NCBI GenBank assembly: GCA_965208905.1
Contig: OZ242365.1
Span: 864,001-928,000 of the forward strand
DNA length: 64,000 nucleotides
Direction: 5' to 3'
Source: Nitrosopumilaceae archaeon
Lineage (GTDB): Archaea > Thermoproteota > Nitrososphaeria > Nitrososphaerales > Nitrosopumilaceae
A model generated the notes under the pieces. The model searched no databases, was not told where the DNA came from, and was given only the letters and a program-made list of their open reading frames with translations. The translations under genes were made by a program, and so were the position numbers. This document shows positions 610-62,216 of the stretch, one piece after another (the stretch's first letter is position 1; every line of letters starts with the position of its first letter).

Positions 610-2035
610 GGGAATTACATACAAAAGTACAGATCCTACGCATCCTTAAATATCAGTATACCGTATTACACATTATGATACGGATAGTCAAGGTACCGCT
701 ACGAAAGGATGTGTTGTTTGCAGAGTGGGCGCACCGCACGAATCATGCGTCAAGATATGTGTACAATCAGGCTGTATCGGAGTACCTGTTTGGCGGGGAA
801 TACATGGAGAGGGTGGTAGTGGACATCCTACAGCCCTTCAAACTGCCAAACACGCTGGACGATTTTACATCAGGTACGCTGGAAGATGACTACCAGGCAT
901 ATGATTTTGGACCGTCTAAATATGCGCTAAAGTACGGCATGTACAAACAGCTTACAGAGTGGCGCGCCAAACATACATGGTTGCGCGAATGCCCCATGGT
1001 ATTTGGCCGCGGCGCCATACAGGATGCCTCGGTTGCATGTAGAAGAGTTATACATGACAACTCCGGCCACGCGCCGTACCGCCGTAAAGACGGCCGCATC
1101 ATACTATATAGTGTAAACCCGCCTGTACGGAAGGATGATCATACAGTACGAATACCCGGATATGGTATGGTAAAGACCGCAAAACCCATAGACGAAACAT
1201 GGGACATGCGGTCATTCAAGATAGTTGATGTTACCAAGAAGGTGACCAAATACACCAAACCATCCGACCATATGTTTGAGCTGCACATTGCTGTATACAC
1301 ACCAGTGGAACAGCACCGTACTACGGGCGTAATACGGGGTGTCGATGTGGGTGGCAAACACCTGGCAGTCACGGTAGACACAAACGGCAACGTTACAATA
1401 CACAACACGCGCCATAGAATAATCCTGCGGGAGATTGACGCGCTAAAGAGCCTGCGCGACCGCAAGGTACGGCATGGCCGGAAGTGGCATATATTGAACG
1501 ACCAAATAAAGCGGCTATACAGGAAGGCTGATGGCATCGCCGTGAATACGATAAACCAGACCGTATCGCGTGTAGTACAGGGAGTGGATGCAGTCATAGC
1601 CGAGATATTATCCATACAAGACATGACTGCACATGGCGGGAATTACAAAAGACACATGAACCGCTCCATGCGGGAGAACCGACTTGGTGAATTTCTACGG
1701 AAGTTGGCGCAGCGATGCGAGAGGGAAGACATTCCGCTATACGGGGTGATGGCCGCATATACGAGCCAGACGTGTCATGTGTGCGGTCACACAGACTCGG
1801 AATCGCGTGTATCACGCGACAAATTCATTTGCACTAATTGTACCAGAGTGTTTCACGCGGATGTCAATGCCGCCTGGAATATTTTACATCGGGCGGCGGG
1901 GAACGTCGTCCTAAGACGGCCGGGGCACAAGGAGGGCTACAAGCCAACACCCGCCATGCTCCGTTCCATACAACGAGGTCGTCAGAAAAGACATGAGTGT
2001 ACAGCTACGGCTGTGTACTTTTGTATATAATTCCC
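610..2035 (+). mobile_element. Non-autonomous TIR element carrying tnpB (TIR family GGGAATTA)
   Basis: 22-bp TIRs GGGAATTACATACAAAAGTACA / GGGAATTATATACAAAAGTACA (1 mismatch); 8-bp direct repeat TAGTTTTA at 602-609 and 2036-2043. Confidence 0.93.
675..2030 (+). CDS. tnpB: TnpB-family RNA-guided nuclease (lineage 1)
   Basis: RuvC-I GVDVG, RuvC-II VIAE, Zn finger CHVC..CTNC, RuvC-III HADVNAAWNI; stop codon lies inside the right TIR. Confidence 0.92.
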   Translation: MIRIVKVPLRKDVLFAEWAHRTNHASRYVYNQAVSEYLFGGEYMERVVVDILQPFKLPNTLDDFTSGTLEDDYQAYDFGPSKYALKYGMYKQLTEWRAKHTWLRECPMVFGRGAIQDASVACRRVIHDNSGHAPYRRKDGRIILYSVNPPVRKDDHTVRIPGYGMVKTAKPIDETWDMRSFKIVDVTKKVTKYTKPSDHMFELHIAVYTPVEQHRTTGVIRGVDVGGKHLAVTVDTNGNVTIHNTRHRIILREIDALKSLRDRKVRHGRKWHILNDQIKRLYRKADGIAVNTINQTVSRVVQGVDAVIAEILSIQDMTAHGGNYKRHMNRSMRENRLGEFLRKLAQRCEREDIPLYGVMAAYTSQTCHVCGHTDSESRVSRDKFICTNCTRVFHADVNAAWNILHRAAGNVVLRRPGHKEGYKPTPAMLRSIQRGRQKRHECTATAVYFCI

Positions 2036-2255
2036 TAGTTTTACGTATACCCGGACTCACAAATTTGTCTATGACGTTATACAAGAGAGATGCTCAAAGT
2101 AATACTGTGTTTACGACCGAACGTTGTCAAAAATATATCCTAACCTGAATACGTCCTGACCATCTATATGTGGCTCAATTTAGGTCCGCACCAAACTTTG
2201 GGGACGAAACTATATTCCATAAGATAATTAAGAGCCACATTACAGTATTTACAGT

Positions 2256-2423
2256 ATGACCAAATGTAGTGAATGTGACGCGGATATATCCACTCCCACA
2301 GATGCCTTAGAAGGAGAGATTGTGACGTGCGCTGATTGTGGAGCAAGTTTCGAGTTGATTGGTAGTTCGGATCCGTTTAGTCTCAAACCCGCCCAGACGG
2401 TAGGCGAGGATTGGGGGCAGTGA
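2256..2423 (+). CDS. lysW: LysW/ArgW amino-group carrier protein (55 aa, missing from ORF track)
   Basis: MTKCSECD...VTCADCGASFEL...GEDWGQ; zinc ribbon and EDWG C-terminus; stop overlaps lysX GTG. Confidence 0.92.
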   Translation: MTKCSECDADISTPTDALEGEIVTCADCGASFELIGSSDPFSLKPAQTVGEDWGQ

Positions 2424-3268
2424 ATCCTGACATAGCCATACTTTACGATACTATCAGGTGGGAAGAGAAGGCCTTGCTGGCGTCAGCAAAAGATATGGGT
2501 GTGACTACCAGTATGGTAAACTGTAAGGGCCTGCATCTGGATTTGGAGGGCAAGACAGACAAGTTTGGTGTGGTACTTCAAAGATGTGTCAGCTATTACA
2601 GAAATGTTCACTCCACAGCGGCACTAGAAGGCATGGGCGTGGATGTAATTAACTGTCATATGACTGGCATACTCGCTGGCAATAAACTATACTCTCACAT
2701 GTTACTCAAAAATGCCGGCGTACCCACACCCAAGGCAACTGTCTCATTTTCACAAGAGGCTGCCTTAAAAGCACTGGATGAGATTGGATATCCTGCAGTC
2801 ATAAAGCCAACCGTGGGAAGCTGGGGCCGACTAATATCAAAGATAAATGATCCAGAGATAGCAGGCAGTATACTGGAGAGCAGGGAGAGTATGTATCCCA
2901 TATACCAGATACACTACATCGAAGAGTTCGTAAAGCGACCTCCTAGAGATATCCGTGCTATAATGGTGGGTGATGAAATAGTGGCAGCCATATATCGTAC
3001 CTCCCATGATAACATGTGGAAGACCAATACGGCCTTGGGTGGAACCGCGGATCCGTGTCCTGTAACACCTGAGATGGAAGAGATGTGCATAAAAGCATCA
3101 AATGCCGTAAGTGGTAAAATCGTGGGTGTGGATTTGATGGAGAGTGATGATGGGTTGTTAGTACATGAAGTAAACAACACAACTGAATTCAAGAACACTG
3201 TACGGGTTACAGGTATTGACATAGCCGGCGCCATGATAAAGTACGCAATACAGAGGGCCAGACGATGA
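2420..3268 (+). CDS. lysX: LysX/ArgX ATP-grasp ligase
   Basis: RimK-like motifs KPTVGSWGR, EVNNTTEF; follows lysW. Confidence 0.92.
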   Translation: MNPDIAILYDTIRWEEKALLASAKDMGVTTSMVNCKGLHLDLEGKTDKFGVVLQRCVSYYRNVHSTAALEGMGVDVINCHMTGILAGNKLYSHMLLKNAGVPTPKATVSFSQEAALKALDEIGYPAVIKPTVGSWGRLISKINDPEIAGSILESRESMYPIYQIHYIEEFVKRPPRDIRAIMVGDEIVAAIYRTSHDNMWKTNTALGGTADPCPVTPEMEEMCIKASNAVSGKIVGVDLMESDDGLLVHEVNNTTEFKNTVRVTGIDIAGAMIKYAIQRARR

Positions 3269-4395
3269 TGTATGGGGCCAATGTAAGTTCAAAATATGCA
3301 GTCAAGATGCTCGAAAAAGCTCTCCGACTCTATACGCCATCACTAAGCGAGCGACCCATGACAGAATTTTTGGCAGACAAGTGCGATGAGCTGGGATTTA
3401 ATGATATACGAATAGATGGTGTGGGTAATGTCATCGCCACAAAGGGCTCTGGTTCACCTACAACAATACTGTGTGGTCATATGGATACGGTGCCCGGCAA
3501 GATACGGGTTCGCCGAGATGGTGACACACTGTATGGCCGTGGAGCCTCAGATGCCAAGGCTCCTTTGATGGCAATGTTGTTTGCCGCAGCATCAGTCGGT
3601 GATGGTAATGGAACTGTGATCTTTGTAGGCGCCGTAGATGAGGAGGGTAACGCTACAGGGATAAAAAATCTGGTCAAAAAGAGAATGAATGTAGATTATG
3701 CTGTATTTGGCGAACCTAGTAGATTAGATCAGGTAACAATAGCCTATAAAGGTAGACTGGCTATCAGCTTGCGTGTAGATGTAAAAGACAGCTCCCATGC
3801 CAGCGCGCCTTGGCTATCAAAGAATGCTATAGAAGAGACTGCATACTTTACATCCAAATTAAAGAGTGCCTTGGAGGCTAGACATGCCGATAGTCGTAGT
3901 ATGCAGATGACTGCTGCTATAACCGAGATTCGCGGCGGCTCCAGTCACAATGTTACTCCGCAAGAGTGCACCACCACTATGGATATACGCATACCTGTCA
4001 CCACCAACTGTAAAATGATTGAGGAGAAGATATCCGACCTTGTTAGAAGCATTAGCGAGGAGAGGGACGTGGAGGTATTCTATTCTATATTGGATGAGAC
4101 CGAACCCTTTGAGGCTCCTCACAACTCGCCTCTGGTACGAGCGTTTACACTGGGAATAATTGAGTGTGAGGGGAACAGACCCACATTGATAAGAAAGACA
4201 GGTACCGGAGACATGAATGTTATGGGAAGTCGATGGGGAATTCCAGTAATCACATATGGACCTGGCGATCCACATGCTTCCCACACAATAAATGAGAGTG
4301 TGTCAGTATCTGAGTATCTGCGAGGAATCGATGTACTCAAAAAATCACTGGCTCACTTGAAGAGACTTCATGATAAAAGACGGGCCACTGTATAA
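3265..4395 (+). CDS. lysK: [LysW]-lysine/ornithine hydrolase (M20 peptidase)
   Basis: GHMDTVPG, GRGASDAK, DEEG, GTGDMN motifs; operon context. Confidence 0.9.
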   Translation: MMYGANVSSKYAVKMLEKALRLYTPSLSERPMTEFLADKCDELGFNDIRIDGVGNVIATKGSGSPTTILCGHMDTVPGKIRVRRDGDTLYGRGASDAKAPLMAMLFAAASVGDGNGTVIFVGAVDEEGNATGIKNLVKKRMNVDYAVFGEPSRLDQVTIAYKGRLAISLRVDVKDSSHASAPWLSKNAIEETAYFTSKLKSALEARHADSRSMQMTAAITEIRGGSSHNVTPQECTTTMDIRIPVTTNCKMIEEKISDLVRSISEERDVEVFYSILDETEPFEAPHNSPLVRAFTLGIIECEGNRPTLIRKTGTGDMNVMGSRWGIPVITYGPGDPHASHTINESVSVSEYLRGIDVLKKSLAHLKRLHDKRRATV

Positions 4396-5408
4396 TGTTG
4401 CATATAGTGGGATTGGGCGTATCGGATGACTCCATACCATATAACATTGAAGATATAATACAAAAAGCAGACATAGTATATCTGGAGGTATTCACCAGCC
4501 CAGACATCAATACCTCCCAGATAAGGCGCATATGCCCCACACTACAGATGGCCCCTAGGTGGCTGGTGGAGGATGGTCGCCGCATACTAGAAGAATCAGA
4601 ATACAAAGATGTGGTTTTAGCATCATATGGAGACCCCTTGGTGGCCACTACCCACACTGAACTTCGAGTACGTGCAGCACAAAGGGGCATACCCGTAAAT
4701 GTGGTGCATGGCCCCTCTGCCATCACAACCTTAGTGGGTGAGTGCGGCCTACATCATTACATGATGGGCCGCATGGCTACCATAATGAGCGAAGATACAC
4801 TGTTGGAGACACCATACATGGTCTCGTATAGAAATGCCGTATTGGGGAATCACACACTGTTATTATTGGAGTATAATCAGGATGCAGACTTTTTTCTAAA
4901 AGCAGATGTGGCACTACAGGGGCTATCTGATGCTGAAAAGAGTTATCGGCGAGGCGTATTTACACCTGACAGACACTGTATAGTGGCATGTCGTATAGGG
5001 ACAAAGAGACAACTTGTAGTATCTGGAAGTCTCTCAAGCCTTGAGGGATACGACTTTGGCGAACCCCCACACTCCATAATACTGACTGGAAGGCTCCACT
5101 TTACTGAATGTGACGCTATACGGGTATTAACCAGATGTATGGATGACCCCCCAGAAAATCAAACCATAAAGAGCATACCACAACAGATGATTGAAAAATA
5201 TACTCCAATGATACACAAATCCATTCAAGATCTTCCAGACTGCTCTAATAATGAAAAATTGATAGTACAAAATGCCATCTCATACATACAAGACGCTCAG
5301 AGGGCTTTGGAGAGTGGCCAAGACGAGGTGGCCATACTGTCTATAGGTTATGCAGATGGTCTAGTAGATGCGTTACGTATTTCACATGGCATGGATCCGA
5401 AAATATAA
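4395..5408 (+). CDS. dph5: Diphthine synthase with C-terminal DUF357-like extension
   Basis: IVGLG, YLEVFTS, GDPLVATTH, DFGEPPHSII; C-terminal LSIGYADGLVDALR. Confidence 0.85.
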   Translation: MLHIVGLGVSDDSIPYNIEDIIQKADIVYLEVFTSPDINTSQIRRICPTLQMAPRWLVEDGRRILEESEYKDVVLASYGDPLVATTHTELRVRAAQRGIPVNVVHGPSAITTLVGECGLHHYMMGRMATIMSEDTLLETPYMVSYRNAVLGNHTLLLLEYNQDADFFLKADVALQGLSDAEKSYRRGVFTPDRHCIVACRIGTKRQLVVSGSLSSLEGYDFGEPPHSIILTGRLHFTECDAIRVLTRCMDDPPENQTIKSIPQQMIEKYTPMIHKSIQDLPDCSNNEKLIVQNAISYIQDAQRALESGQDEVAILSIGYADGLVDALRISHGMDPKI

Positions 5409-5432
5409 TATTCCAAAAAACAACCTACTATT

Positions 5433-6044
5433 TTGCAGATGGATTCAATACAAGGCAGTGTGATATTTGCTGCATATGTTGCGCAGATCACCGACAAACC
5501 ACTACAAGATGTGTGTGCGCAGCGAGGAGTGCCTGATTATGTTATGCGCAAAGGTATCGCTAGACTGAACCGTAATGGTCTGATGGATGAACATACACTG
5601 ACGGCACTGGGCCGAGAGTCTATTCGGGTAGTTTTAACTGGAGGTGTCTTTGATATAATACATCCTGGTCACATACACACACTCAATGCCGCCAAGGGTC
5701 TAGGGGATATATTGGTGGTGGTTGTTGCCAGTAATAGTACGGCTACTAAAAAGAGTGATAACATAATACACTCCCAGACACAGCGGCAGACTTTAGTGGA
5801 GTCACTACAGATTGTAGATGTCTGTGTGATAGGACACCAGAATAATATATTCAAGACTGTTCAGGATATAATGCCTGATATTGTAGCGCTGGGATATGAT
5901 CAAGGACATCATGAAAAATATATCGCTGATGGGTGCAAAAAAATCAATCCGCGAATTCAGGTGGCACGACTGCAGTCACCTGTACCAGACATATCCAGCT
6001 CAGAGATAAAACGTGTATATGGTGACAATATACATAATCTCTAA
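5433..6044 (+). CDS. ribL: FAD synthase / cytidylyltransferase family
   Basis: GGVFDIIHPGH (HxGH), PDIVALGYDQ, ISSS; adjacent to ribK. Confidence 0.75.
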   Translation: MQMDSIQGSVIFAAYVAQITDKPLQDVCAQRGVPDYVMRKGIARLNRNGLMDEHTLTALGRESIRVVLTGGVFDIIHPGHIHTLNAAKGLGDILVVVVASNSTATKKSDNIIHSQTQRQTLVESLQIVDVCVIGHQNNIFKTVQDIMPDIVALGYDQGHHEKYIADGCKKINPRIQVARLQSPVPDISSSEIKRVYGDNIHNL

Positions 6045-6721
6045 CTCTCCGCCAGTATGGATACTGTAATCTGTGATCCGTCAGATATATTTGCCCGGGT
6101 TCTTAGATGCACATCAGATATTATCTCCATTATGCACGGGTCATGATGAGTTCTCTCCAAACGAATCATATAGCAGTTGATGTCTGGCAGTATCCGTATG
6201 GGATAGCAGCGTACCCAACCATATGTTCTTTGACCATCCGAGAAACCTTCAATCAATATGCTGGGAAAATCCTCAACACCTGATATGGTACGGGCAGACT
6301 CTGTATCCAATTGTACATTTAGTGTGCCCGGAAAAGGAGTCAAGTCAATCTTTGCGCAAAATTGTGTTATATATCCGGGTAACGACATGTAATATGCGCC
6401 CTCACCAACACCAGACACTATCCTCCCCCGGAGAGTTGCACTGCGAGGCTTGTGTTGTACAGCATTGTTCAATATGGATGAGACTCTCATCACCTCGGCA
6501 TACCCTTTCTTTGTGACCCGTATGTGTCTACCACGTCCTTTGGCTTCACGCTGAATCAGACCACTACTCTCCAACTCTGCTAGATGACTAGATGCTGCCT
6601 GCTGAGATACGCCCACCGCCCGACCCAACGTCAATGTGGTTACAGGTACAAATCCATTCTGACACCCCAAAGTCATCAAATGGGCCAAAGTCATCAAATG
6701 ATGGATCTTTAATGTTGCCAA
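6041..6721 (-). CDS. ribK: CTP-dependent riboflavin kinase with N-terminal HTH
   Basis: SQQAAS HTH, GRIVSGVGEGAYY, PFPGTLN, ERTHH. Confidence 0.9.
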   Translation of the reverse strand: MATLKIHHLMTLAHLMTLGCQNGFVPVTTLTLGRAVGVSQQAASSHLAELESSGLIQREAKGRGRHIRVTKKGYAEVMRVSSILNNAVQHKPRSATLRGRIVSGVGEGAYYMSLPGYITQFCAKIDLTPFPGTLNVQLDTESARTISGVEDFPSILIEGFSDGQRTYGWVRCYPIRILPDINCYMIRLERTHHDPCIMEIISDVHLRTRANISDGSQITVSILAES

Positions 6722-7912: not shown

Positions 7913-7955
7913 TATAATAGTCTAACGAAATTGAAAAATGGGAAAAATTTGAAAA

Positions 7956-8306
7956 CTACTCGGTATTAAAGGAGTGTCCGCAAGAGCAGGACTTTACTAC
8001 ATTGGGATTGTTAATCTTAAATCCAGAGCCCATGAGACTCTCAATGTAGTCCACATTAGCGCCTTTGAGGTGGTCTAAACTCATGCTATCCACTAGTAAC
8101 TTTACACCAGCCTCTTCTATGACTAGGTCGTCCTCCTCTGGCTTGGCCTCAAAGCCCATGCCGTATGAGAGGCCAGAACATCCTCCTCCCTGTACGTATA
8201 CACGCAGATATTCGGGCTTGGCTTCCTCTTCGGCCATAAACTCTTTAATCTTTGTAGCCGCAGTCGCGGTAACGGTTATCAACTTTTGTGTCTGTTTAGT
8301 CTCCAT
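7956..8306 (-). CDS. erpA: HesB/IscA/ErpA Fe-S cluster carrier
   Basis: GGGCSGLSY and CSCGHSF motifs. Confidence 0.88.
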   Translation of the reverse strand: METKQTQKLITVTATAATKIKEFMAEEEAKPEYLRVYVQGGGCSGLSYGMGFEAKPEEDDLVIEEAGVKLLVDSMSLDHLKGANVDYIESLMGSGFKINNPNVVKSCSCGHSFNTE

Positions 8307-8352
8307 TGTATGGTACTTTGTTAATTTTTGTTATAATAACTTTGTGGAGTTA

Positions 8353-8512
8353 GGTTCTTGCAAGGACAGGTGATTTGGCCATGCCCAAACGTAGGGCATT
8401 CTGCGGCGTACCATCCCATCAATATCCCTCCTACGATACATGTTGGATGTGGCGGGTGTCTGGCGGTATCACACTTCGTCTCGGGCCGTCACCCCGTCTT
8501 GCGGGAGTAACC
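8353..8512. mobile_element. Degenerate MITE-like remnant with GGTTCC-family-like ends
   Basis: Left GGTTCTTGCAAGGACAGGTGAT; right (rev-comp) GGTTACTCCCGCAAGACGGGGTGAC; no clean TSD. Confidence 0.5.
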
Positions 8513-8691
8513 CATTTGTGGGGGCTAAATGGTTACCATGCCCCCTGCTAATTTTAGGCGCTCGATATAGGTTGTTGCTACATATTGCTAATTAACACCG
8601 TTTTGCGCCGTTAGTAAGGCTGCAATGCCCGTATCACATCAAAATCGGACCTAGAACGGGGGCGGGGTTGAGCATGTACGCCCTTCAGATG

Positions 8692-10309
8692 GGTTCCTCC
8701 TGCAAAGTCGGGTGATGTTACACCACCGCCATGCGGGATAGTCTGTCAGCCCAGTTGCTCCAGCAACCCTGTATGAGTGGTGTGGGATCGAGGATTACAT
8801 CCACGCCACGACGGACTTCGCCCAGACTGGCCGAAACCTGACGACCATATCGGGATACGGCACTTGTTCGCCGTATATTCTCCACTGCGTTGACGTCACG
8901 ATCTACGCCAACTATATGGCAGCGGGTGCAGTCTTTTCTATGATAAGTTCCAGTTAGTATGGTTCTGCACGCAGCACATAGCTTGGATGTGTTGTGTGGA
9001 CGCATATGTAATGCCTCCACTCCCAAAAACCGGGACTTTTCATAAATTAAATCCGATGCCTTTCGCATCATGGCAGAGTATAGCCTGCGACGCATACTGC
9101 GTCCAAACTTCCCATTCTTCTGCCAATTGTACGATATGTGGGTTAACTCCTCTAACATCACCAAGCATCCGGACTGTGCGGCCCACTGTGCAATGCATAG
9201 TGCTATCACGTTCAGCACATGTTCGTGGTGGCGCACGGCTTTGGCCACCCTGCGTTTTTTATCATTCTTTTTTGACTTTGTGTGGTTATGCTGTATGCTC
9301 AATATGCATCTGCTCATCTGCCTCTTTATCTCGGCGGCCCTCTTGTGTTTGCCCTCCCTTTTGAGTTTCCTGTATCTGCGTTTGAGTTTGCTGTGTAACT
9401 TATGACCACCATGTGTGACTTGTTGCTTTTCTCTGCGCTCCTCCTCTTTTTTGTGTACAACACGCCTTCCGGTACGTGCCGTATATGCGATATTATCATG
9501 TGTACGAGTATACGTATTGTTTGCATCCTCCGTCTTTGCCTCCTCAATGGCTTGTATGGTATCTGATAGATCAAACCGTACCATCGTGTTTTTATCACCT
9601 ACGGTGATGTTCTTTTCATTAATATCAACACCAATCACATCCTTTGGCGTGCCGCCCACATATCCCACATCCGTAAGCAACTCGATAATCTCCGATTTGC
9701 CGTGTGGGTGTGGCTTTTCAACCTCGGGCACTTTATTATGATATGTTATGGTGTATGTGGTCGGCGTAATCCACAACTCGCCCAACTCATTTTGCCCTAT
9801 TTTACGTACCGCATCTGGAGAGACGGGAATTGCTATCATGTGTCGGTGTTTTGACGAGCCAACATTTGCAACAGCCATATATCCACCCGCTATCGGATTC
9901 AGCCTCCAATTTTGGTTTTTCAGCTTTACCACTGGATTGCGAAACACGGGCTCAGATACCTTCATGCCCTGTGCAGCCTTTGTATTGCACGTTTTATGGG
10001 CGGCAACCCCGTCCCGTATGGCGGTCTGTGTTATAGATGAATGTACTTTGGGATCAGAACCGCGCATTGTACGATACATCAATGCGTTAACATCATAGGT
10101 ATTCCTCCCTGTATTATTCGCTATAATGTACGCCACTTCTGCTACCTTCCTGACATGTTCAAACACATGTCGCATGCCCAAATTTTTTGTGTATGGGCGT
10201 GTTATCGCCCTGCTATTTTTCACAAAAGCCATCATATAGTACGGTTTAATGACGTATTTAACGCTATCTAACAACACATCAACCATCTCCCGACTTTACA
10301 GGAGGAACC
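8692..10309 (-). mobile_element. Non-autonomous TIR element carrying tnpB, family A copy 1
   Basis: 21-bp TIRs GGTTCCTCCTGCAAAGTCGGG / GGTTCCTCCTGTAAAGTCGGG; TSD TTCAGATG at 8684-8691 and 10310-10317. Confidence 0.95.
8718..10286 (-). CDS. tnpB: TnpB-family nuclease (lineage A)
   Basis: GVDINE, VMLEEL, CAAC..CTRC, DRDVNAVENI. Confidence 0.9.
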   Translation of the reverse strand: MVDVLLDSVKYVIKPYYMMAFVKNSRAITRPYTKNLGMRHVFEHVRKVAEVAYIIANNTGRNTYDVNALMYRTMRGSDPKVHSSITQTAIRDGVAAHKTCNTKAAQGMKVSEPVFRNPVVKLKNQNWRLNPIAGGYMAVANVGSSKHRHMIAIPVSPDAVRKIGQNELGELWITPTTYTITYHNKVPEVEKPHPHGKSEIIELLTDVGYVGGTPKDVIGVDINEKNITVGDKNTMVRFDLSDTIQAIEEAKTEDANNTYTRTHDNIAYTARTGRRVVHKKEEERREKQQVTHGGHKLHSKLKRRYRKLKREGKHKRAAEIKRQMSRCILSIQHNHTKSKKNDKKRRVAKAVRHHEHVLNVIALCIAQWAAQSGCLVMLEELTHISYNWQKNGKFGRSMRRRLYSAMMRKASDLIYEKSRFLGVEALHMRPHNTSKLCAACRTILTGTYHRKDCTRCHIVGVDRDVNAVENIRRTSAVSRYGRQVSASLGEVRRGVDVILDPTPLIQGCWSNWADRLSRMAVV

Positions 10310-10351
10310 TTCAGATGTAAGCTATTTAGTAGTGTGCATATTGTCTGAATC

Positions 10352-12620: not shown

Positions 12621-12710
12621 AATACTAATACGTCTACACCATATTAAAGAGCTCCATTTGTTATACCTGCACAGGATACGATTTTTAATGGCATTGCACA
12701 ACGTGTAGTA

Positions 12711-13202: not shown

Positions 13203-13207
13203 CTAAT

Positions 13208-13413: not shown

Positions 13414-13422
13414 CTGCAACAC

Positions 13423-29356: not shown

Positions 29357-29384
29357 TAAAAGAGGCCAATTCCATACGATACAA

Positions 29385-30611: not shown

Positions 30612-30658
30612 AAAATCTTAACAAATATGTATTTAGGCTCCTCCCGCAAAGTCGGGCG

Positions 30659-32224
30659 ATGGTTGATGTATTGTTGGATAGTGTTAAATACATTATTAAA
30701 CCGTACTATGTGATGGCTCTTGTAAAAAATAGCAGGGCAATAACACGTACATACACAAAAAATTTGGGTATGCGGTATGTGTTTGAGCATGTCAGGAAGG
30801 TGGCAGAAGTGGCGTACATTATAGCGAATAATACGGGGAAGAATACCTATGGTGTTAACGCATTAATGTATCGTACAATGCGCGGTCTTGACCCCAAAGT
30901 ACGTTCATCCATAACGCAGACCGCCATACGGGACGGGGTTGCCGCCCATAAAACGTACAATACAAAGACTGCGCAGGGCATGAAGGTATCTGAACCTGTA
31001 TTCTGTAATCCGGTTGTAAAGTTAACAAATCAAAGTTGGAGGCTGAATCCGATAGCGGGTGGATATATGGCTGTTGCAAATGTTGGCTCATCAAAACACC
31101 GACACATGATAGCAATTCCCATCTCTTTAGATGTGGTACGCAGAATAGGACAAAATGAGTTGGGCGAGTTGTGGATCACGCCAACCACCTATACAATTAC
31201 ATATTACAACAAAGTACCAACGGTTGAAAAACCCCACCCACACGGCAAGTCGGAGATTATTGAACTACTTACGGATGTGGGGCAGGTGGGCGGCACGCCA
31301 AAGGATGTGATTGGTGTTGATATTAATGAAAAGAACATCACCGTAGGTGATAAAAACACGATGGTACGGTTTGATCTATCATGTACAATACAGGCCATTG
31401 AGGAGGCAAAGACCGCGGATGTAAACAATACGTATACACGCACACATGATGATGCCGCATATGCAGCACGTACCGGAAGGCGTGTTGTACACAAGAAGGA
31501 GGAGGAGCGCAGGGGAAAACAACAAGTCACACATGGTGGTCCCAAACTATACAACAAACTCAGACGCAGATACAAGAAACTCAAGAGGGAGGGCAAACAC
31601 AAGAGGGCCGCGGAGATAAAGAAGCAGACGAACAGATGTATACTGAGCATACCACATAACCACACAAAGTCAAAAAAGAATGATAAAAAACGCAGGGTGG
31701 CCAAAGCCGTGCGCCGCCACGAACACGTGCTGAATGTAATAGCATTATGTATAGCACAGTGGGCCGCACAATCCGGGTGCTTGGTGATGTTGGAGGATTT
31801 AACCAATATATCGTACAGTTGGCAGAAGAATGGGAAGTTTGGCCATAATATGCGTCGCAGATTATATTCTGCCATGATGCGGAAAGCATCGAATTTAATT
31901 TATGAAAAGTCCCGGTTTTTGGGAGTGGAGGCATTACATATGCGTCCACACAATACATCCAAGTTGTGTGCTGCATGTAGAAACATACTAACTGGGACTT
32001 ATCATAAAAAAGACTGCACCCACTGTTGTACAGTTGGCGTAGATCGCGACGTCAATGCAGTGGAGAATATACGGCGAACAAGCGCCGTATCCCGATATGG
32101 TCGTCAGGTTTCGGCCAGTCTGGGCGAAGTCCGTCGTGATGTGGATGTAATCCTCGATCCCACACCACTCATACAGGGTTGCTGGAGCAACTGGGCTGAC
32201 AGACTATCCCGCATGGTGGTGTAA
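30659..32224 (+). CDS. tnpB: TnpB-family nuclease (lineage A)
   Basis: GVDINE, VMLED, CAAC..CTHC, DRDVNAVENI. Confidence 0.9.
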   Translation: MVDVLLDSVKYIIKPYYVMALVKNSRAITRTYTKNLGMRYVFEHVRKVAEVAYIIANNTGKNTYGVNALMYRTMRGLDPKVRSSITQTAIRDGVAAHKTYNTKTAQGMKVSEPVFCNPVVKLTNQSWRLNPIAGGYMAVANVGSSKHRHMIAIPISLDVVRRIGQNELGELWITPTTYTITYYNKVPTVEKPHPHGKSEIIELLTDVGQVGGTPKDVIGVDINEKNITVGDKNTMVRFDLSCTIQAIEEAKTADVNNTYTRTHDDAAYAARTGRRVVHKKEEERRGKQQVTHGGPKLYNKLRRRYKKLKREGKHKRAAEIKKQTNRCILSIPHNHTKSKKNDKKRRVAKAVRRHEHVLNVIALCIAQWAAQSGCLVMLEDLTNISYSWQKNGKFGHNMRRRLYSAMMRKASNLIYEKSRFLGVEALHMRPHNTSKLCAACRNILTGTYHKKDCTHCCTVGVDRDVNAVENIRRTSAVSRYGRQVSASLGEVRRDVDVILDPTPLIQGCWSNWADRLSRMVV

Positions 32225-32248
32225 TCACCCGACTTTGCGGGAGGAACC
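32069..32248 (+). ncRNA. Putative omegaRNA scaffold of family A (equivalent regions in the other three copies)
   Basis: Hairpins ATACGGCG/CGCCGTAT, GGTCG/CGGCC, GTTGC/GCAAC, TCCCGCA/TGCGGGA; more conserved between copies than the ORF body; position matches known tnpB omegaRNAs; 5' boundary uncertain. Confidence 0.65.
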
Positions 32249-44304: not shown

Positions 44305-44318
44305 TAGTTCTGTATGTA

Positions 44319-49844: not shown

Positions 49845-51398
49845 GGGAATTATATGGAACAGTGAACATTGGATGCTCATTCAAGTATGGAAACATGTGG
49901 TACATGACCACATACAACTTTATATCTGAAATATCATAATATATCATGCAGACCAAGAAAAACATAATCTATAGAACCCACAAATACAGGTTAAAGACCA
50001 ACAGTAATATCACATCATATGTTGAAAACCTAGAGGCCGAAAACCGTATGTGGGTTGAACTTGGCGTTATGGCACGCAACCTAAACGTACCGTTCACGGC
50101 CGGCAGCAGTCCTGACCCATACCCCCGAAGTATACTGAGGTGCGTTACGGTTGCTAAAGATATGATGGCGGAATGGGAGAACGTCAGTCCTAAATCAATA
50201 TCCATGATTCGCGGCGCAATACTGGCAGGTATTGAGATGAAGGACTGCAAACATCTTAAGGACGGTAAAATCTATCCGATATTCTTTCTTGGTGCGCCAA
50301 AACAAATTAAACATAATATGATATGGTTTACGAAATCCAACGTGCAATTCAGTATAGTACGGGGACGACTGCCCGACGGTACAACAATAGCATCACACAA
50401 AATAGTTGACATAACGAATGATGCAGACCGTAGGCGCGGCCACCGCCAATTCGAACTACACCTAACTATACAAGAACGCATCCCGGATAGAAAGATAACC
50501 AGTCTGACCGCTGGCGTTGATATGGGTAAGTTAACAGCATACGTAGCCTTATCGGACGGCACTACCCGCGTTCTTAGATTATATGATACGGAGATAAACA
50601 AACACATCAGAAAACTTCAATCAGAACGTGACAGGTGCACACATAACAGCAACAAATGGAATAGGATAAACAATCGCATTAGGCGGCAACGCAAGGTATT
50701 GTACAACTGGCAACTAAACGAATATAGACACTTTTGTAAAAAACTGTGTGTGGATTGTGATTTGATAAAATTCGAGAATCTTAACCTGATAAATATAACC
50801 CGCAAGGGAGGTGGCAGGATAAAAGGTAAGAACCGCACACTAAAAGAGAGTAAGGCCGGTGAGGTCCGTGATTGGTGTGTCAAGAAAGCACCCGAATATA
50901 ACACGGAAATAAGAGAGGTTAGACCACATAACACATCCAAAAAATGCCATATATGTCAGAGTAAAAACACTGAACGTTATGGCGGTTTTAAGACATGGCA
51001 TAATGACAAAATCATATATGAAAATTGGAGCCATAACCGAAAGTTCAAATGTAAAAATTGTGGCAACCTCACACACGCCGACTATAATGGTGCTTTCAAC
51101 ATCATGTATGGTCACGATAATAATTATAACAATAATTACGATTACACAAAACCAAACTCGAGACGCGCCCAGAAGGCAAGTCGTTTGTGTATAAAGTCCG
51201 GGTCGGACTTGAGGGACAGGATAAATCTACGCAACCGCACGCCCCCACCGGTTGTAAATGACTGGCAGGTAGTAAAGACCGCACTTCCCAAAAGGGAGAG
51301 CGCGCCAACCAAACACACCCTGAATGGTGTTGACAACACTCAACACCAACGAAAATTATCTCTGAATGAACATGTGTTCACTTAAAGATGTAATTCCC
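49845..51398 (+). mobile_element. Non-autonomous TIR element carrying tnpB (TIR family GGGAATTA)
   Basis: TIRs GGGAATTATATGGAACAGTGAACA / GGGAATTACATCTTTAAGTGAACA; TSD ATTTGAAC at 49837-49844 and 51399-51406. Confidence 0.9.
49946..51385 (+). CDS. tnpB: TnpB-family nuclease (lineage 3)
   Basis: YRTHKYRL N-terminus, GVDMG, IKFENL, CHIC..CKNC, HADYNGAFNI; stop inside TIR. Confidence 0.9.
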   Translation: MQTKKNIIYRTHKYRLKTNSNITSYVENLEAENRMWVELGVMARNLNVPFTAGSSPDPYPRSILRCVTVAKDMMAEWENVSPKSISMIRGAILAGIEMKDCKHLKDGKIYPIFFLGAPKQIKHNMIWFTKSNVQFSIVRGRLPDGTTIASHKIVDITNDADRRRGHRQFELHLTIQERIPDRKITSLTAGVDMGKLTAYVALSDGTTRVLRLYDTEINKHIRKLQSERDRCTHNSNKWNRINNRIRRQRKVLYNWQLNEYRHFCKKLCVDCDLIKFENLNLINITRKGGGRIKGKNRTLKESKAGEVRDWCVKKAPEYNTEIREVRPHNTSKKCHICQSKNTERYGGFKTWHNDKIIYENWSHNRKFKCKNCGNLTHADYNGAFNIMYGHDNNYNNNYDYTKPNSRRAQKASRLCIKSGSDLRDRINLRNRTPPPVVNDWQVVKTALPKRESAPTKHTLNGVDNTQHQRKLSLNEHVFT

Positions 51399-59820: not shown

Positions 59821-60717
59821 TTGACTGCTGATGTGAGCAAAGACATAGAAAACGTGGAGACAGATGTAACTGATTCTGTCACTGAAACAGACGCAAACTT
59901 GGATGCGACTGCAGAACCGGCAACTGACACAACACCTGATGATGTGATTGAACCTGATATGTCTGCTGCAGAACCTAGTGATGCTGACATTGAGACAGAC
60001 CAGTTGAGCAAGGATTCGGGTATAGAGTACGATGATTCTGCAGAACCTAGTGATGCTGACATTGAGACAGACCAGTTGAGCAAGGATTCGGGTATAGAGT
60101 CCGATGATGCTGACATTGAGACAGACCAGTTGAGCAAGGATTTGGGTATAGAGTCCGATGATGCTGCAGAACCCGACCCAAAAAAACCCCGTGAATTATC
60201 CGAGGAGGCGCGTGCTAAAATTGATGCTATGATCGCAGATGGAAGACTTGATGATGACTTTGGCGATGGACAGCCTGCAGTTATAGCTGATAAACCTGAA
60301 AAATGGGGCATAGCCCACATCTTTAGTAGTTTTAACAATACAATAATACATTTGACTGACCTTACGGGTGCTGAAACCATAGCCATAAGCTCTGGCGGAC
60401 AGCACTCTAATGCAGATAGATATGAGTCATCCCCATTTGCCGCCATGAAGGCAGCCAATGCGGTGGTAGATGTTGCACGTGCTAGAGGGTTTACAGGATT
60501 TCACATTCGCGTCCGTGCAGTTGGTGGCGTGGGCTCTCGAGTTCCAGGACCTGGTGCGCAGGCAGCCATTAGGGCACTGGCAAGGGCCACATCAAACAAA
60601 GATGATGATCCAGATTCTGGACTGGGTGCATTCCGTATAGGCCGTATAGATGATGTCACACCAATTCCTCATGATACCACTAGGAAGAAAGGCGGAAAAC
60701 GCGGAAGACGAGTCTAA
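59821..60717 (+). CDS. rps11: Ribosomal protein uS11 with long acidic N-terminal extension
   Basis: [44 protein letters not shown]. Confidence 0.9.
59980..60154 (+). repeat. Three in-frame copies of a 49-bp core ([12 protein letters not shown][S/L]GIE)
   Basis: Copies start at 59980, 60052, 60106 (periods 72 and 54 bp). Confidence 0.92.
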
Positions 60718-60821
60718 CAGGTTTGTCTCTAGAACTGTTTCTTGAGTTGTCAATATGTCCTATATCTGTGGTTAAACTCGGTTCCTACTGCAAGCACGGG
60801 GGTTCCCACACCTACAATACA

Positions 60822-62216
60822 TTACACGTCACGCCAGAGGACGACGGTGCATGACACATCTCGTTCCCCGGTCTGTGCTTGACGTTTCTCAGGGGAGCTA
60901 ACGCAAGAACCCTCCACGTCCAGACACCCCTTAACATGGGTGCTGCCGGTATTGTCCGGCAAGTTTCGTAAGTTTAGTTGACCATGTCTGGCCCTCGGGC
61001 CGAGTTTCTTCAGCCCCACATCCTCTATGTTTGAGCCCGCATTACAGTCGGCATGATACCTGTAGCCACACTTTTTACACAAGAACCGTCTACCATCCCG
61101 GTTATCTTTATGTGTATAACCGCACGAGTAGCACCGTTGGCTTGTATACGCTGCCGCAACCCAAATTATCTCTCCAGCCAACTTGTACGCCAATAGAGCG
61201 GCGAGCAGCCCCCAGCACTGCTCTAGGATGGCCTTATTGAGACCAGATTTTTGCGCAACGTTCTTGCCGGGTTTTTCTTTGGTACCTTTGACGGACTTTG
61301 CCATATTTTGTATGGGTAGATTCTCCATGGCTGCATGTGTGGTACTGTCCGATATAACGCGTGATATTTTATGCGCGGTGGTCTTTCGAATATTTGCGGC
61401 TTTGCGTTTGTTCTTGGCGGCACGTTTACTGGCTTTGGCCCACCGTCGGGAGCCGGGCTTGCGATTCGTATAATTGGGTTTATGCCTGCGCGAGGCTATC
61501 TTTTGCGCCTTAGAGGCTGTTTTTTCGGCGTTATTCATGCGACGTGTGACCTTTTCGGGTACCATTATTACACAGTCAGGTGTGGCCACATTACCGACAT
61601 TCCGGTCTATGCCAATAACGGTCTGCTCGGTCACGGTTGGCTTCTCGTCTGGTACATCACAAGATATGGTAATCCTCCACCCACCATCCGGTAGTTGAAA
61701 TAGTTGCGCGGTCTTGTATCGGTAATTCAGGACGGGAAACTCCCGAGACAGTTTAACCTCGCCCATCTTGGCTATCTTGATTGTACGTGTATCGGTGAAG
61801 CGCGCTTGGCCGACGGTGCCATCATGCGTTATTATAAACGGGATGGAGATTCGCTCACCGTGTCGTTTAAAGTGTGGTTCACCAAACTCCGCCTTAGGTT
61901 TGATGTCAGCAGCCTTCAGCCTCTCTGTTTCCACATATTGGTCATAATGCCTTCCCAAGTCATATAATATTTGGCGCGTCACCCCGGATATAGACTGACG
62001 CAGCCAACACGGACCCGAACGGTTGCGCAAGTCCGTATACCAGGCGTTTATCCTACCCTGTGTGGTGTTGACCCTTCCAGCTCGACGGTACTCCTCCTTG
62101 AAGGTTTCCAATAATTTGTTATACACGTACCTGTCCATGCCGGCCTGTCTGGCCAACATCTCCTTCTTGAACCCTTTACGGAATCTAACGCCGAATGTGT
62201 ATGTACGTAGTACCAT
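60822..62216 (-). CDS. tnpB: TnpB-family nuclease (lineage B)
   Basis: RYVYN, GIDRN, AMENL, YTSQRCYSC..CKKC, HADCNAGSNI. Confidence 0.93.
   Translation of the reverse strand: MVLRTYTFGVRFRKGFKKEMLARQAGMDRYVYNKLLETFKEEYRRAGRVNTTQGRINAWYTDLRNRSGPCWLRQSISGVTRQILYDLGRHYDQYVETERLKAADIKPKAEFGEPHFKRHGERISIPFIITHDGTVGQARFTDTRTIKIAKMGEVKLSREFPVLNYRYKTAQLFQLPDGGWRITISCDVPDEKPTVTEQTVIGIDRNVGNVATPDCVIMVPEKVTRRMNNAEKTASKAQKIASRRHKPNYTNRKPGSRRWAKASKRAAKNKRKAANIRKTTAHKISRVISDSTTHAAMENLPIQNMAKSVKGTKEKPGKNVAQKSGLNKAILEQCWGLLAALLAYKLAGEIIWVAAAYTSQRCYSCGYTHKDNRDGRRFLCKKCGYRYHADCNAGSNIEDVGLKKLGPRARHGQLNLRNLPDNTGSTHVKGCLDVEGSCVSSPEKRQAQTGERDVSCTVVLWRDV

What the first reader, a model, noticed from the sequence alone, without database searches (positions are those of the whole stretch)
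1891..60920. The transposon TIR is built into the putative omegaRNA: terminal hairpin plus a loop complementary to the last TIR bases in unrelated lineages
Seen on the tnpB sense strand. (i) Lineage 1: stem GGGCGGCG/CGTCGTCC (1891-1911) has loop GGGAA, complementary to the terminal TTCCC (2031-2035); a UACG-capped hairpin (1997-2018) runs into the TIR. (ii) Family A: stem GGTCG/CGGCC (32099-32116) has loop TCAGGTTT, which can pair with terminal GAACC; TCCCGCA (32207-13) pairs with TIR TGCGGGA (32236-42), leaving GGAACC free. (iii) Lineage B (minus strand): a 15-bp stem TATTGTAGGTGTGGG/CCCGTGCTTGCAGTA (60786-60819, six G-U pairs, so valid only as sense RNA) again leaves GGAACC free; an upstream loop holds GGTTCT (60906-60911). 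(iv) Remnant 13277-13296: loop with GGGAA versus terminus TTTCC. Established: TnpB omegaRNAs overlap the tnpB 3' end, end at the transposon boundary and form a pseudoknot next to the guide. Inference: the loop tracks the TIR family (GGGAA vs GGTTY), i.e. the RNA co-evolved with its new DDE end, and the guide starts at the TSD. I could not find an equally clear loop for 49845 or 13423.
Basis: partly seen in the sequence, partly recalled or inferred. Interest (0 to 1): 0.9.

Follow-up and report, generated by a model that had tools for sequence, protein, structure and literature searches.

The report
Guide RNA built into transposon ends
In an archaeon found in sponge metagenomes, small RNA-guided nuclease genes (tnpB) ride inside transposons that have inverted-repeat ends, and the sequence evidence suggests their guide RNA folds around that repeat, an arrangement so far described mainly for eukaryotic relatives.

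Summary
Hairpins (i)-(iii) are reproduced by folding. Hairpin (iv) is not, and LB's GGTTCT is not a clean loop. The genome holds about 83 TnpB-like loci. L1 carries TIRs shared with IS1595-family transposase elements. FA and LB carry GGTTCC...GCAA TIRs (weakly IS6-like). All make 8-9 bp TSDs, and one FA copy is an empty site in a related strain.

The 3' ~145 nt look like an omegaRNA. dN/dS is about 0.2, and dS drops 1.6-7.5-fold in the last 48 codons. Stems covary, and the inner TIR forms the 3' arm of the last helix in 22 of 25 homologs. The loop sits at -137 (L1) and -145..-138 (FA), the place of the published TnpB pseudoknot. Across FA-like homologs (29-100% aa) GGUU is the only invariant internal motif, and RNAalifold pairs it with the GAACC tip.

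An L1-like lineage with another TIR has loop AGAGCGU against tip CGCUAUA. A lineage-specific motif lies 5' of the left TSD only (L1 G 15/16; FA TA 14/14; LB T 17/17), which fits a TAM and a guide starting at the TSD.

Missing: RNA evidence, within-family loop/tip covariation, and clear loops in L4 and M. DDE-associated prokaryotic TnpBs and Fanzor TIR scaffolds are already published.

The parts
598..601 (+). L1: TAM-like motif (ATGG, G at 601) immediately 5' of the left TSD
   Evidence: G at -1 in 15 of 16 TSD-supported L1 copies, against 2 of 8 in E1420 elements with the same TIR family (source rows)
602..609 (.). L1 left TSD, TAGTTTTA
   Evidence: Identical 8-mer at 2036-2043
610..632 (+). 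L1 left TIR (GGGAATTACATACAAAAGTACA...)
   Evidence: Copy alignment and TIR scan. The same terminal motif bounds four elements that encode PF12762 IS1595-family transposases
675..2030 (+). L1 tnpB (451 aa)
   Evidence: PF07282 E 1.2e-17. RuvC D/E/D motifs and two CxxC pairs are present. dN/dS 0.20 over 14 paralogs
1891..1911 (+). L1 stem-loop with the proposed pseudoknot strand in its loop (GGGAA, 1899-1903; -137..-133)
   Evidence: In the MFE. Stem cells are 97.3% paired, with 2 pairs changed on both sides, in 14 distinct homologs
1915..1983 (+). L1 central helix of the putative scaffold
   Evidence: MFE and RNAalifold on 20 genome copies
1991..2024 (+). L1 guide-proximal hairpin. Its 3' arm lies in the right TIR
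   Evidence: MFE. Outer stem CAUGAG/CUUUUG is replaced by GAUAAG/CUUAUC in two copies. Inner TIR is paired in 5 of 6 L1-like homologs
2012..2035 (+). L1 right TIR. The tip UUCCC (2031-2035) is left single-stranded
2036..2043 (+). L1 right TSD, predicted to be the first 8 nt of the guide
   Evidence: TSD. The guide role is inferred from the position of the TAM-like motif
30625..30627 (+). FA: TAM-like motif (ATA) 5' of the left TSD
   Evidence: TA at -2,-1 in 14 of 14 TSD-supported FA-like elements from four genomes (G000, G002, G005, G007), against 2 of 17 LB-like elements
30628..30635 (.). FA left TSD, TGTATTTA (right copy at 32249-32256)
30636..30658 (+). FA left TIR (GGCTCCTCCCGCAAAGTCGGGCG)
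30659..32224 (+). FA tnpB (521 aa, divergent)
   Evidence: PF07282 E 9.6e-7. D/E/D and CxxC motifs present. dN/dS 0.18
32099..32116 (+). FA stem-loop. Loop UCAGGUUU (-145..-138) holds GGUUU, complementary to tip GAACC with one G-U
   Evidence: MFE. GGUU is invariant in 12 of 12 FA-like sequences plus 3 of 3 metagenome loci, while the stem sequence changes. RNAalifold pairs it with the tip
32207..32242 (+). FA guide-proximal helix (TCCCGCA/TGCGGGA enclosing a small hairpin). Its 3' arm is the inner TIR
   Evidence: MFE. Inner TIR is paired in 7 of 8 FA-like homologs and in 1 metagenome locus
32226..32248 (+). FA right TIR. Tip GGAACC (32243-32248) is free
60772..60779 (.). 8-bp TSD (TTAAACTC) of the composite LB element plus degenerate transposase element. 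Second copy at 63838-63845
   Evidence: pair 924780-927837, 3058 bp
60780..60800 (-). LB right TIR (CCCGTGCTTGCAGTAGGAACC). Tip GGAACC is free
60786..60819 (-). LB guide-proximal 15-bp stem with six G-U pairs. Its 3' arm is the inner TIR
   Evidence: MFE. Inner TIR is paired in 9 of 10 LB-like homologs, each with a different sequence. Some G000 copies carry mismatches
60906..60912 (-). LB GGGUUCU (-132). Either the candidate pseudoknot strand or part of a local stem
   Evidence: GGAGGGTTCT is invariant in 20 of 20 aligned sequences and in 25 of 26 LB-like 3' regions. It stays conserved in copies where the frame is broken upstream. RNAalifold pairs GGGUU locally
60822..62216 (-). LB tnpB (464 aa)
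   Evidence: PF07282, PF01385 and PF12323. Motifs present. dN/dS 0.18
62271..62293 (-). LB left TIR (GGTTCCTCCCGCAAGGACGGGTG)
62302..63837 (+). Degenerate, frameshifted transposase element with the same TIRs, head-to-head with LB
   Evidence: TIR hits. ORF fragments. Weak IS6-family hits (E about 1e-3) and an IS1/IS1595 zinc ribbon. No Pfam hit
8692..10309 (-). Second FA copy. It is absent (empty site) in a related strain
   Evidence: A DNA contig of run X16 joins 8681 to 10308, skipping 1626 bp, with 10 letters that fit both sides. TSD
49845..51398 (+). L4 TnpB element with GGGAATTATAT-type TIR and TSD ATTTGAAC. No clear complementary loop
13208..13413 (-). 3' remnant of an M/L4-like element, cut by insertion of the L5 element (about 13414-15145)
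   Evidence: The hairpin proposed in (iv) is not in the MFE

Best explanation
Each element is a non-autonomous TIR/TSD transposon whose only gene is tnpB. L1 has IS1595-type ends. FA and LB have IS6-like ends.

The last ~145-180 nt, which overlap the 3' end of tnpB, encode the scaffold of an omegaRNA (reRNA) that runs to the last base of the right TIR. The inner TIR bases are the 3' arm of the guide-proximal helix. The outer 5-6 TIR bases stay single-stranded and form the canonical TnpB pseudoknot with a loop about 130-145 nt upstream. Read-through into the flank then supplies the guide, whose first 8-9 nt are the TSD.

TnpB would recognise a lineage-specific TAM that lies just 5' of the TSD in an unoccupied site and cut that site. 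This would favour copying or retention of the element.

Shown here: the element anatomy, mobility, selection on TnpB, extra constraint and conserved structure on the sense strand, and the loop/tip complementarity with its conservation.

Inferred: transcription, the exact 3' scaffold boundary, the pseudoknot itself, TAM function and cleavage.
For: Anatomy
- TIRs with 8-bp TSDs: 13 L1, 10 FA and 7 LB copies in this genome, plus 8-9 bp TSDs in relatives.
- One FA copy is an empty site in a related strain.
- The L1 TIR motif is shared with 4 intact PF12762 transposase elements.

Function of TnpB
- Catalytic and zinc-finger motifs are present.
- dN/dS is 0.18-0.20.

RNA-level constraint
- dS in the last 48 codons against the rest: L1 0.263 vs 0.521, FA 0.043 vs 0.321, LB 0.214 vs 0.337.
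- L1 sense z = -3.69 against antisense +0.22.
- 17 of 35 RNAalifold pairs are compensatory in the FA family.
- The L1 stem is 97.3% paired with 2 compensatory pairs.
- The inner TIR is the 3' arm of the last helix in 22 of 25 homologs, and the sequences differ between lineages.

Pseudoknot
- Published geometry: the 5 nt beside the guide pair with an apical loop. In ISXfa1 this is U-130/A-3, validated by compensatory mutants (PMC10711439, passages). In ISDra2, -5..-3 pair with -103..-105 (PMC10097598, passages).
- Here the L1 loop is at -137..-133 and the FA loop at -145..-138.
- In the FA family the only invariant runs of 4 nt or more are the anchor codons, GGUU and the tip, whatever amino acids are encoded. 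RNAalifold pairs GGUUY with the tip in 12 of 12 sequences.
- Three metagenome relatives (29% aa identity) have GGCGUG-AGGUU-CGCGCC and tip AGAACC.
- The E1420 loop holds GGAAU in 9 of 10 sequences, against tip AUUCC.
- The L1-like lineage in G003 keeps the same stem but has loop AGAGCGU and a TATAGCGG-type TIR with tip CCGCUAUA. AGCG:CGCU holds in 10 of 13 copies, and one copy has AGCA with UGCC.

TAM
- One-sided motifs: L1 G 15/16, FA TA 14/14, LB T(-3) 17/17 with TTG or TCA by sublineage.
- FA against LB, which share the TIR: Fisher p = 5e-7. L1 against E1420, which share the TIR: p = 0.0013.
Against: - No RNA evidence. Contigs of three metatranscriptome runs do not cover the elements, and contigs could not show ends in any case.
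- Loop and tip never co-vary within a family. In the proposed L1 pseudoknot 0 of 5 pairs change on both sides, and the fifth pair is broken in 7 of 14 sequences.
- L1 loop bases are also a Gly codon, so part of their conservation is protein-level.
- FA and LB z-scores are not significant.
- RNAalifold places LB's GGGUU in a local stem.
- L4 and L4b have no complementary loop.
- In the M lineage the tips differ (GUUCC, GCUCC, GCCCA) while the candidate loop stays GGAAU and lies about 250 nt away.
- E1420 shows no TAM-like motif in 8 copies.
- The G003 lineage is pseudogenised. I estimate its 4-bp match at roughly 9% by chance.
- Seven of 9 non-TnpB elements with the L1-type TIR have a G next to the TSD on at least one side, so some transposase preference is not excluded.
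- Paralogs and congeners are not independent samples for the structure counts.
Confidence: 0.6

Rival explanations
1. An omegaRNA exists, but its functional scaffold ends upstream of the TIR. The TIR is then spacer-like, trimmed or irrelevant, and the loop/tip complementarity is incidental to a short conserved tip.
For: Tip and loop are invariant within families, so no compensatory change proves pairing. Only 4 of 11 representatives show a loop 5-mer match. In the M lineage the conserved RNA-like region ends far from the varying tips. LB's motif can pair locally.
Against: The loop lies at the published pseudoknot distance. GGUU is the only invariant internal motif in the FA family and is conserved independently of coding. 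The inner TIR is built into the last helix in 22 of 25 homologs. The TAM-like motif abuts the TSD, as expected if the scaffold ends at the tip.
Confidence: 0.15
2. The conserved 3' structures are not a guide RNA. They would be DNA-level features of the right end (transposase binding, end hairpins) or mRNA features such as stability or termination signals. The flank motif would be the target-site preference of the DDE transposase.
For: The structures overlap the TIR, which the transposase must bind. FA folds equally well on both strands. Seven of 9 non-TnpB elements with the L1-type TIR have G beside the TSD on at least one side. No RNA was observed.
Against: Constraint reaches about 145 nt, well beyond the 21-24 bp TIR. 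G-U-rich stems and the L1 z-score are specific to the sense strand. The left ends lack the complementary arm. The flank motif is one-sided and differs between TnpB lineages that share a TIR family. A symmetric DDE transpososome would not be expected to give that pattern (inference). TnpB is under purifying selection with intact catalytic motifs.
Confidence: 0.12
3. The TnpBs are relics or have been domesticated (for example guide-RNA-directed regulators), and no longer act on empty sites. The structures would be inherited from an IS200/IS605-type ancestor and merely tolerated next to newly acquired TIRs.
For: Many copies are broken: the G003 lineage, the L5 in-frame stop, and FA and LB fragments. 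No intact transposase with GGTTCC ends was found in this genome.
Against: There are many intact paralogs with dN/dS about 0.2. One insertion is polymorphic between strains. TSDs are perfect. The loop matches the present TIR tip in three different TIR families, which implies adaptation to these ends.
Confidence: 0.08

Closest known systems
Canonical TnpB reRNA/omegaRNA of IS200/IS605 and IS607 (ISDra2, ISXfa1)
   Same: The RNA overlaps the 3' end of tnpB, has several stems, and has a pseudoknot between the roughly 5 nt next to the guide and an upstream loop (PMC10097598 and PMC10711439, passages). The TAM lies 5' of the target, and the guide is read from the flank of the right end.
   Different: These elements have TIRs and 8-9 bp TSDs. 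IS200/IS605 and IS607 have neither (review PMC13565253, passages). The pseudoknot strand and the last helix are made of TIR bases that a DDE transposase presumably also needs. The first 8-9 guide bases would be the duplicated target.
Fanzor1 / Fanzor2* reRNAs in eukaryotic TIR transposons
   Same: A TnpB-family nuclease is cargo of TIR/TSD transposons, often non-autonomous. TIR bases are predicted to be part of the RNA scaffold (PMC10711439, passages).
   Different: In Fanzors the TSD is described as absorbed into the scaffold, and Fanzor1 is predicted to lack the pseudoknot. Here the TSD varies between copies, so it cannot be scaffold, and a pseudoknot-like complementarity is kept. The host is an archaeon.
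DDE-transposase-associated prokaryotic TnpB branches (Altae-Tran et al. 2023, PNAS; IS630-linked and others)
   Same: Prokaryotic TnpBs flanked by inverted terminal repeats, with the TnpB 3' end within 250 bp of the transposon end, and solo TnpBs with ends like those of transposase-bearing elements (PMC10691335, passages).
   Different: The passages I read name IS630. The review adds ISL2 and IS1031. 'IS1595' does not occur in the main text, and I could not open the supplements. In the passages I read I found no description of the RNA fold, of a TIR tip acting as pseudoknot strand, or of a TAM placed 5' of the TSD.

Membership tests
TnpB (OMEGA RNA-guided nuclease) | RuvC-like domain with D/E/D catalytic residues and a zinc finger between RuvC-II and RuvC-III | tested here: met
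   PF07282 is over its cut-off in L1, FA, LB, L4 and L5. D, E, D and two CxxC motifs are found in L1 (RuvC-I read by eye), FA and LB
TnpB (OMEGA RNA-guided nuclease) | A structured RNA encoded at and overlapping the 3' end of tnpB | tested here: inconclusive
   Structure, covariation and dS suppression support it. No transcript was observed, and no Rfam family matched
TnpB (OMEGA RNA-guided nuclease) | A TAM next to the target that matches the flank-derived guide | tested here: inconclusive
   A one-sided, lineage-specific motif lies 5' of the left TSD in L1, FA and LB. None is seen in E1420. Function was not tested
TnpB (OMEGA RNA-guided nuclease) | RNA-guided DNA cleavage | not testable with these tools
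   Needs a biochemical or interference assay
Canonical reRNA pseudoknot architecture | About 5 nt flanking the guide pair with an apical loop about 100-130 nt upstream | tested here: inconclusive
   Complementarity at -137 (L1) and -145..-138 (FA). GGUU/GAACC is kept in 15 of 15 FA-like sequences. The loop switches with the TIR family in the G003 lineage. There is no within-family compensatory change. LB is ambiguous. L4 is negative
IS200/IS605 (IS1341-type solo tnpB) | No TIRs, no TSDs, asymmetric ends with subterminal hairpins | tested here: not met
   21-24 bp TIRs and 8-9 bp TSDs
IS1595-family derived non-autonomous element (L1, L4, E1420) | TIRs shared with elements that encode a DDE_Tnp_IS1595 transposase; 8-bp TSD | tested here: met
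   GGGAATTATA... ends bound three examined elements (C1:675271-677401, 1043578-1046414, 1770047-1772736; a fourth pair at C1:1211856-1213986 has the same TIR and length as the first). Each encodes a ~320-aa transposase ORF, and the four strongest PF12762 hits (140-142 bits) fall inside these intervals. All have 8-bp TSDs. That 8 bp is typical of the family is recalled, not tested
IS6-family derived element (FA, LB) | IS6-type DDE transposase with matching TIRs; 8-bp TSD | tested here: inconclusive
   The only partner is a frameshifted element with weak NCBIfam IS6 hits (E 0.001-0.002) and no Pfam hit. The 13 PF13610 loci lie elsewhere, and none of the 75 GGTTCC-type TIR hits lies at their coordinates. 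The resemblance of GGTTC.....GCAAA to IS26-type ends is recalled, not tested
Fanzor-type reRNA | TSD incorporated into the constant scaffold | tested here: not met
   TSD sequences differ between copies

The most novel reading that the evidence does not exclude
Archaeal TnpBs have repeatedly re-fitted their guide RNA to TIR/TSD-type (DDE-type) ends. The transposase-bound TIR tip doubles as the pseudoknot strand, and the TSD becomes the seed of the guide. TnpB cutting of TAM-TSD-flank empty sites then acts as a filter or drive, and that leaves a lineage-specific TAM imprint on the insertion sites of otherwise non-specific IS1595/IS6-like elements. This would be a prokaryotic counterpart of the Fanzor solution, with a different treatment of the TSD.
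Probability: 0.4. Interest if true: 0.75.

Novelty: new variant of a known kind. Interest (0 to 1): 0.6.

Why it matters
If correct, it shows how one RNA can meet two demands at once: the end sequence that a DDE transposase needs and the TnpB scaffold.

It would also show how RNA-guided homing can work for transposons that duplicate their target. Yoon et al. 2023 raise as an open question why prokaryotic TnpBs were known only with IS200/605 and IS607 (passage). A 2026 review discusses the low association of OMEGA systems with DDE transposases (passage).

The finding gives directly testable predictions for several compact TnpBs with short candidate TAMs (G, WTA, TTG, TCA). It also offers a natural series of scaffolds for study: FA-like loci from 29% to 100% identity.

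Tried and rejected
- RNA evidence. One run search and one laying of three metatranscriptome contig sets plus one DNA run. The RNA contigs do not cover the elements, so nothing can be said about expression or ends.
- Rfam at gathering threshold. Only 5S rRNA was found in the window.
- Wider homolog sampling to find new tip types:
  - The genome-contig scan with an L1 alignment returned only 10 loci, all from congeners or close kin.
  - The metagenome scan with an FA alignment returned 3 loci, all with the same GAACC tip.
  - So no further independent loop/tip switches were obtained.
- L098, the one LB-like locus with GGCUC instead of GGUUC, has no recognisable TIR or right end. It was dropped from alignment A2. 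L079, L084 and L086 were also left out of A2 as near-duplicates of L078.
- M lineage. TIRs of 22-57 bp and several tip types were found by an inverted-repeat search. No loop follows the tips. I did not resolve where its RNA would end.
- The L5 (13423) RNA was not analysed beyond its boundaries.
- L092, an LB-related element with tip GUCCC, has GGGAC at -98, but in a predicted stem. It is suggestive only.
- Identifying the GGTTCC-end transposase by Pfam failed.

Full report
**What is there.** The window lies in a 2.21-Mb single-contig genome with 45.6% G+C. Its relatives' records are titled Nitrosopumilaceae and Cenarchaeum MAGs. Parts of the window occur in sponge and marine metatranscriptome libraries. 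Five ORFs in the window carry the TnpB TNB domain: L1 at 675-2030, FA at 30659-32224, LB at 62216-60822, L4 at 49946-51385, and L5 at 15050-13435 with an in-frame stop. With these five proteins as queries, tblastn merges into 83 TnpB-like loci genome-wide. These include 15 full-length L1, 12 FA and 8 LB elements.

**Element boundaries.** Aligning the copies fixes the ends.
- L1 runs from GGGAATTAYATACAAAAGTACA... to ...TGTACTTTTGTATATAATTCCC (window 610-2035).
- FA runs from GGYTCCTCCCGCAAAGTCGGG... to ...CCCGACTTTGCGGGAGGAACC (30636-32248).
- LB runs from GGTTCCTCCCGCAAGGACGGGTG to ...CCCGTGCTTGCAGTAGGAACC (62293-60780, minus strand).

A TIR-pair scan finds 8-bp TSDs (at most 1 mismatch) for 13 L1, 10 FA (2 of them deletion derivatives) and 7 LB (1 derivative) copies. 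Relatives show 8- or 9-bp TSDs. A DNA contig from a related strain (run X16) joins 8681 to 10308 and skips 1626 bp, so the FA copy at 8692-10309 is a true insertion polymorphism.

The L1-type end motif also bounds four elements that encode PF12762 (IS1595-family) transposases. The only transposase-like partner for the GGTTCC ends is a frameshifted element at 62302-63837, with weak IS6-family hits. That element and LB together are flanked by one TSD, TTAAACTC. These features rule out IS200/IS605-type elements.

**Check of the observation.** All quoted strings are at the stated coordinates.
- L1: the MFE reproduces the 1891-1911 hairpin with the 5-nt loop GGGAA and the 1991-2024 hairpin, and leaves AUAUAAUUCCC free. 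z = -3.69 on the sense strand against +0.22 on the antisense strand.
- FA: both described helices appear and GGAACC is free, but z is about -1.4 on both strands.
- LB: the 15-bp, six-G-U stem appears and GGAACC is free, with z = -0.19.
- Remnant (iv): the proposed hairpin is not in the MFE (all).
- LB's GGTTCT is not a clean loop. RNAalifold on 20 homologs pairs GGGUU with AGCUC locally.

**Is the 3' end a constrained RNA?** TnpB is under purifying selection: dN/dS is 0.20, 0.18 and 0.18 for L1, FA and LB. Synonymous divergence falls in the last 48 codons: 0.263 against 0.521, 0.043 against 0.321, and 0.214 against 0.337. In four LB copies the frame is broken upstream of this segment, yet the nucleotides stay conserved.

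In 12 FA-like sequences from seven genomes (G000, G001, G002, G005-G008), at 31-100% aa identity, 17 of 35 RNAalifold pairs have compensatory changes. In 14 distinct L1-like sequences the loop-bearing stem is 97.3% paired. It shows C-G to U-A changes, and its closing pair is seen as C-G, G-C, A-U and U-G.

I folded the last 75 nt of 25 representatives with the final 5 nt held unpaired. The inner TIR (-25..-7) is the 3' arm of a helix, with at least 9 of 19 nt paired, in 22 of them. The exceptions are L094, L037 and L019. The helix sequence differs from lineage to lineage, as the TIR does. The left ends do not carry the complementary arm.

**The loop/tip pairing.** Published work places the TnpB pseudoknot between the roughly 5 nt that flank the guide and an apical loop.
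- ISXfa1: U-130 pairs with A-3, confirmed by compensatory mutants (PMC10711439, passages read).
- ISDra2: -5..-3 pair with -103..-105 (PMC10097598, passages read).

Here the L1 loop is at -137..-133 and the FA loop at -145..-138. LB's GGUUC starts at -132.

In the FA family the stem changes through seven forms: GGUCG/CGGCC, GGCCA/UGGCC, GGGGCC/GGCCCC, GGCC/GGCC, CGGCCG/CGGCCG, GGGCCC/GGGCCC and, in three metagenome loci at 29% identity, GGCGUG/CGCGCC. The loop always holds GGUU. The codon before it always ends in G and the Val codon is always GUU, although the neighbouring amino acids differ. GGUU is the only invariant internal run of 4 nt or more. RNAalifold itself pairs GGUUY with the tip in 12 of 12 sequences (G-C 12, G-C 12, U-A 12, U-A 8/U-G 4, C-G 8/U-G 4).

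In E1420 elements, which have the same TIR family as L1, the second hairpin's loop holds GGAAU in 9 of 10 sequences, against tip AUUCC at -6..-2.

The most telling case is an L1-like, pseudogenised lineage in genome G003. It keeps the stem GGGCGGC/GUCGUCC. Its loop is AGAGCGU (MFE loop GAGCG at -138), its 20-bp TIR is TATAGCGGTCACCATAAGTC, and its tip is CCGCUAUA. AGCG:CGCU is present in 10 of 13 copies, and one copy has AGCA with UGCC. So the loop follows the TIR family in position-homologous hairpins.

**Limits of the loop/tip evidence.**
- Within families nothing co-varies. The L1 pseudoknot columns are G-C 14/14, G-C 14/14, G-C 13/14, A-U 13/14 and A-U 7/14, with no double change.
- The L1 loop is also a Gly codon.
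- I estimate a 4-bp match like the G003 one at roughly 9% by chance.
- L4 and L4b show no loop.
- In the M lineage the tips vary without any loop change.

**Where would the guide start?** I oriented every TSD-supported copy by tnpB and tallied the 5 nt upstream of the left TSD (rows).
- L1: G at -1 in 15 of 16, with A and T preferred at -4 and -3.
- FA-like: TA at -2,-1 in 14 of 14, across four genomes (G000, G002, G005, G007).
- LB-like: T at -3 in 17 of 17, followed by TG in the G000, G005, G001 and G006 copies and by CA in 3 of 4 G009/G002 copies.
- E1420: no preference in 8 copies.

The mirror positions 3' of the right TSD show no motif. FA and LB share a TIR family yet differ (Fisher p = 5e-7). 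L1 and E1420 share a TIR family yet differ (p = 0.0013). A one-sided motif that follows the TnpB lineage rather than the TIR is what a TAM would look like if the target is TSD plus right flank, that is, if the guide begins at the TSD. One caveat: 7 of 9 non-TnpB elements with L1-type ends have a G beside the TSD on at least one side, so some transposase preference cannot be excluded.

**Comparison with what is known.** The scheme works like a canonical TnpB omegaRNA, but the elements fail the IS200/IS605 definition because they have TIRs and TSDs. It resembles Fanzor reRNAs, where TIR and TSD are predicted to be scaffold. Here, however, the TSD varies and a pseudoknot-like pairing is kept. Prokaryotic DDE-associated TnpBs with inverted terminal repeats are already reported (PMC10691335, passages; review PMC13565253, passages). 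The main text of the first never mentions IS1595, and I could not see its supplements.

Four literature searches returned no paper whose title or abstract describes TnpB in Nitrososphaerota, a TIR tip used as pseudoknot strand in a prokaryote, or a TAM placed 5' of a TSD. These searches cover only the held library.

**Verdict.** I put its probability at about 0.6. It still lacks RNA or activity data and within-family covariation. It is a new variant of a known kind.

Noticed in passing
window 60772-63845: The LB TnpB element and a degenerate, frameshifted transposase element with the same TIRs lie head-to-head, 8 bp apart. Together they are flanked by one 8-bp TSD (TTAAACTC), as if the 3058-bp pair had moved as one unit using its outer ends.
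   Followed up: partly
window 8681-10308: A DNA contig from a related strain (run X16) skips 1626 bp here. This is an empty site for an FA TnpB element, with 10 letters that fit both sides of the joint.
   Followed up: yes
window 13208-15145: The L5 TnpB element (own TIR type, CTGCA...GGGT.TGTCCC; in-frame TAG near 14242) is inserted into the 3' part of an M/L4-like element. That leaves a roughly 200-nt remnant ending in GATGTAATTTCC.
   Followed up: partly
window 2037 and 13423: A contig of run X16 joins 2037 to 13423 (skips 11385, side only 29 letters, 'between: not known'). Both places lie beside TnpB element ends. This may be a repeat artefact or a rearrangement in the related strain.
   Followed up: no
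window 29382-29501: A 5S rRNA gene (Rfam, 74.8 bits) lies 136 bp downstream of the right end of the FA copy at 27631-29246.
   Followed up: no
G000 C1:1043578-1046414 and C1:1770047-1772736 (outside the window): IS1595-type elements with the L1-type TIRs and 8-bp TSDs carry cargo as well as the transposase: a large ORF that looks like a DNA methyltransferase fused to an HNH motif (read by eye, not searched).
   Followed up: no
E1420 copies (e.g. G000 C1:352058-353477), L4 (window ~51280-51300), L092: In three lineages the sequence complementary to the tip (GGGAA, GGGAG, GGGAC) is paired in a local hairpin with an internal copy of the tip-like sequence (UUCCC, GUUCC). This could be chance or an alternative pairing.
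   Followed up: no
G000, M lineage (e.g. C1:402556, 2209997, 768211): A further TnpB lineage of about 14 copies has long TIRs (22-57 bp) of another type (GGAACTGTCCC... / TGGGCTGTGAC...) with several tip variants and 8-bp TSDs. Its conserved RNA-like region ends about 100-150 nt before the tip.
   Followed up: partly
G000 C1:1493807-1494006, 1694379-1694542, 2197132-2197327: Solo 3' fragments of L1 elements, 160-200 nt long, begin close to the start of the putative omegaRNA region and end at the TIR tip.
   Followed up: no
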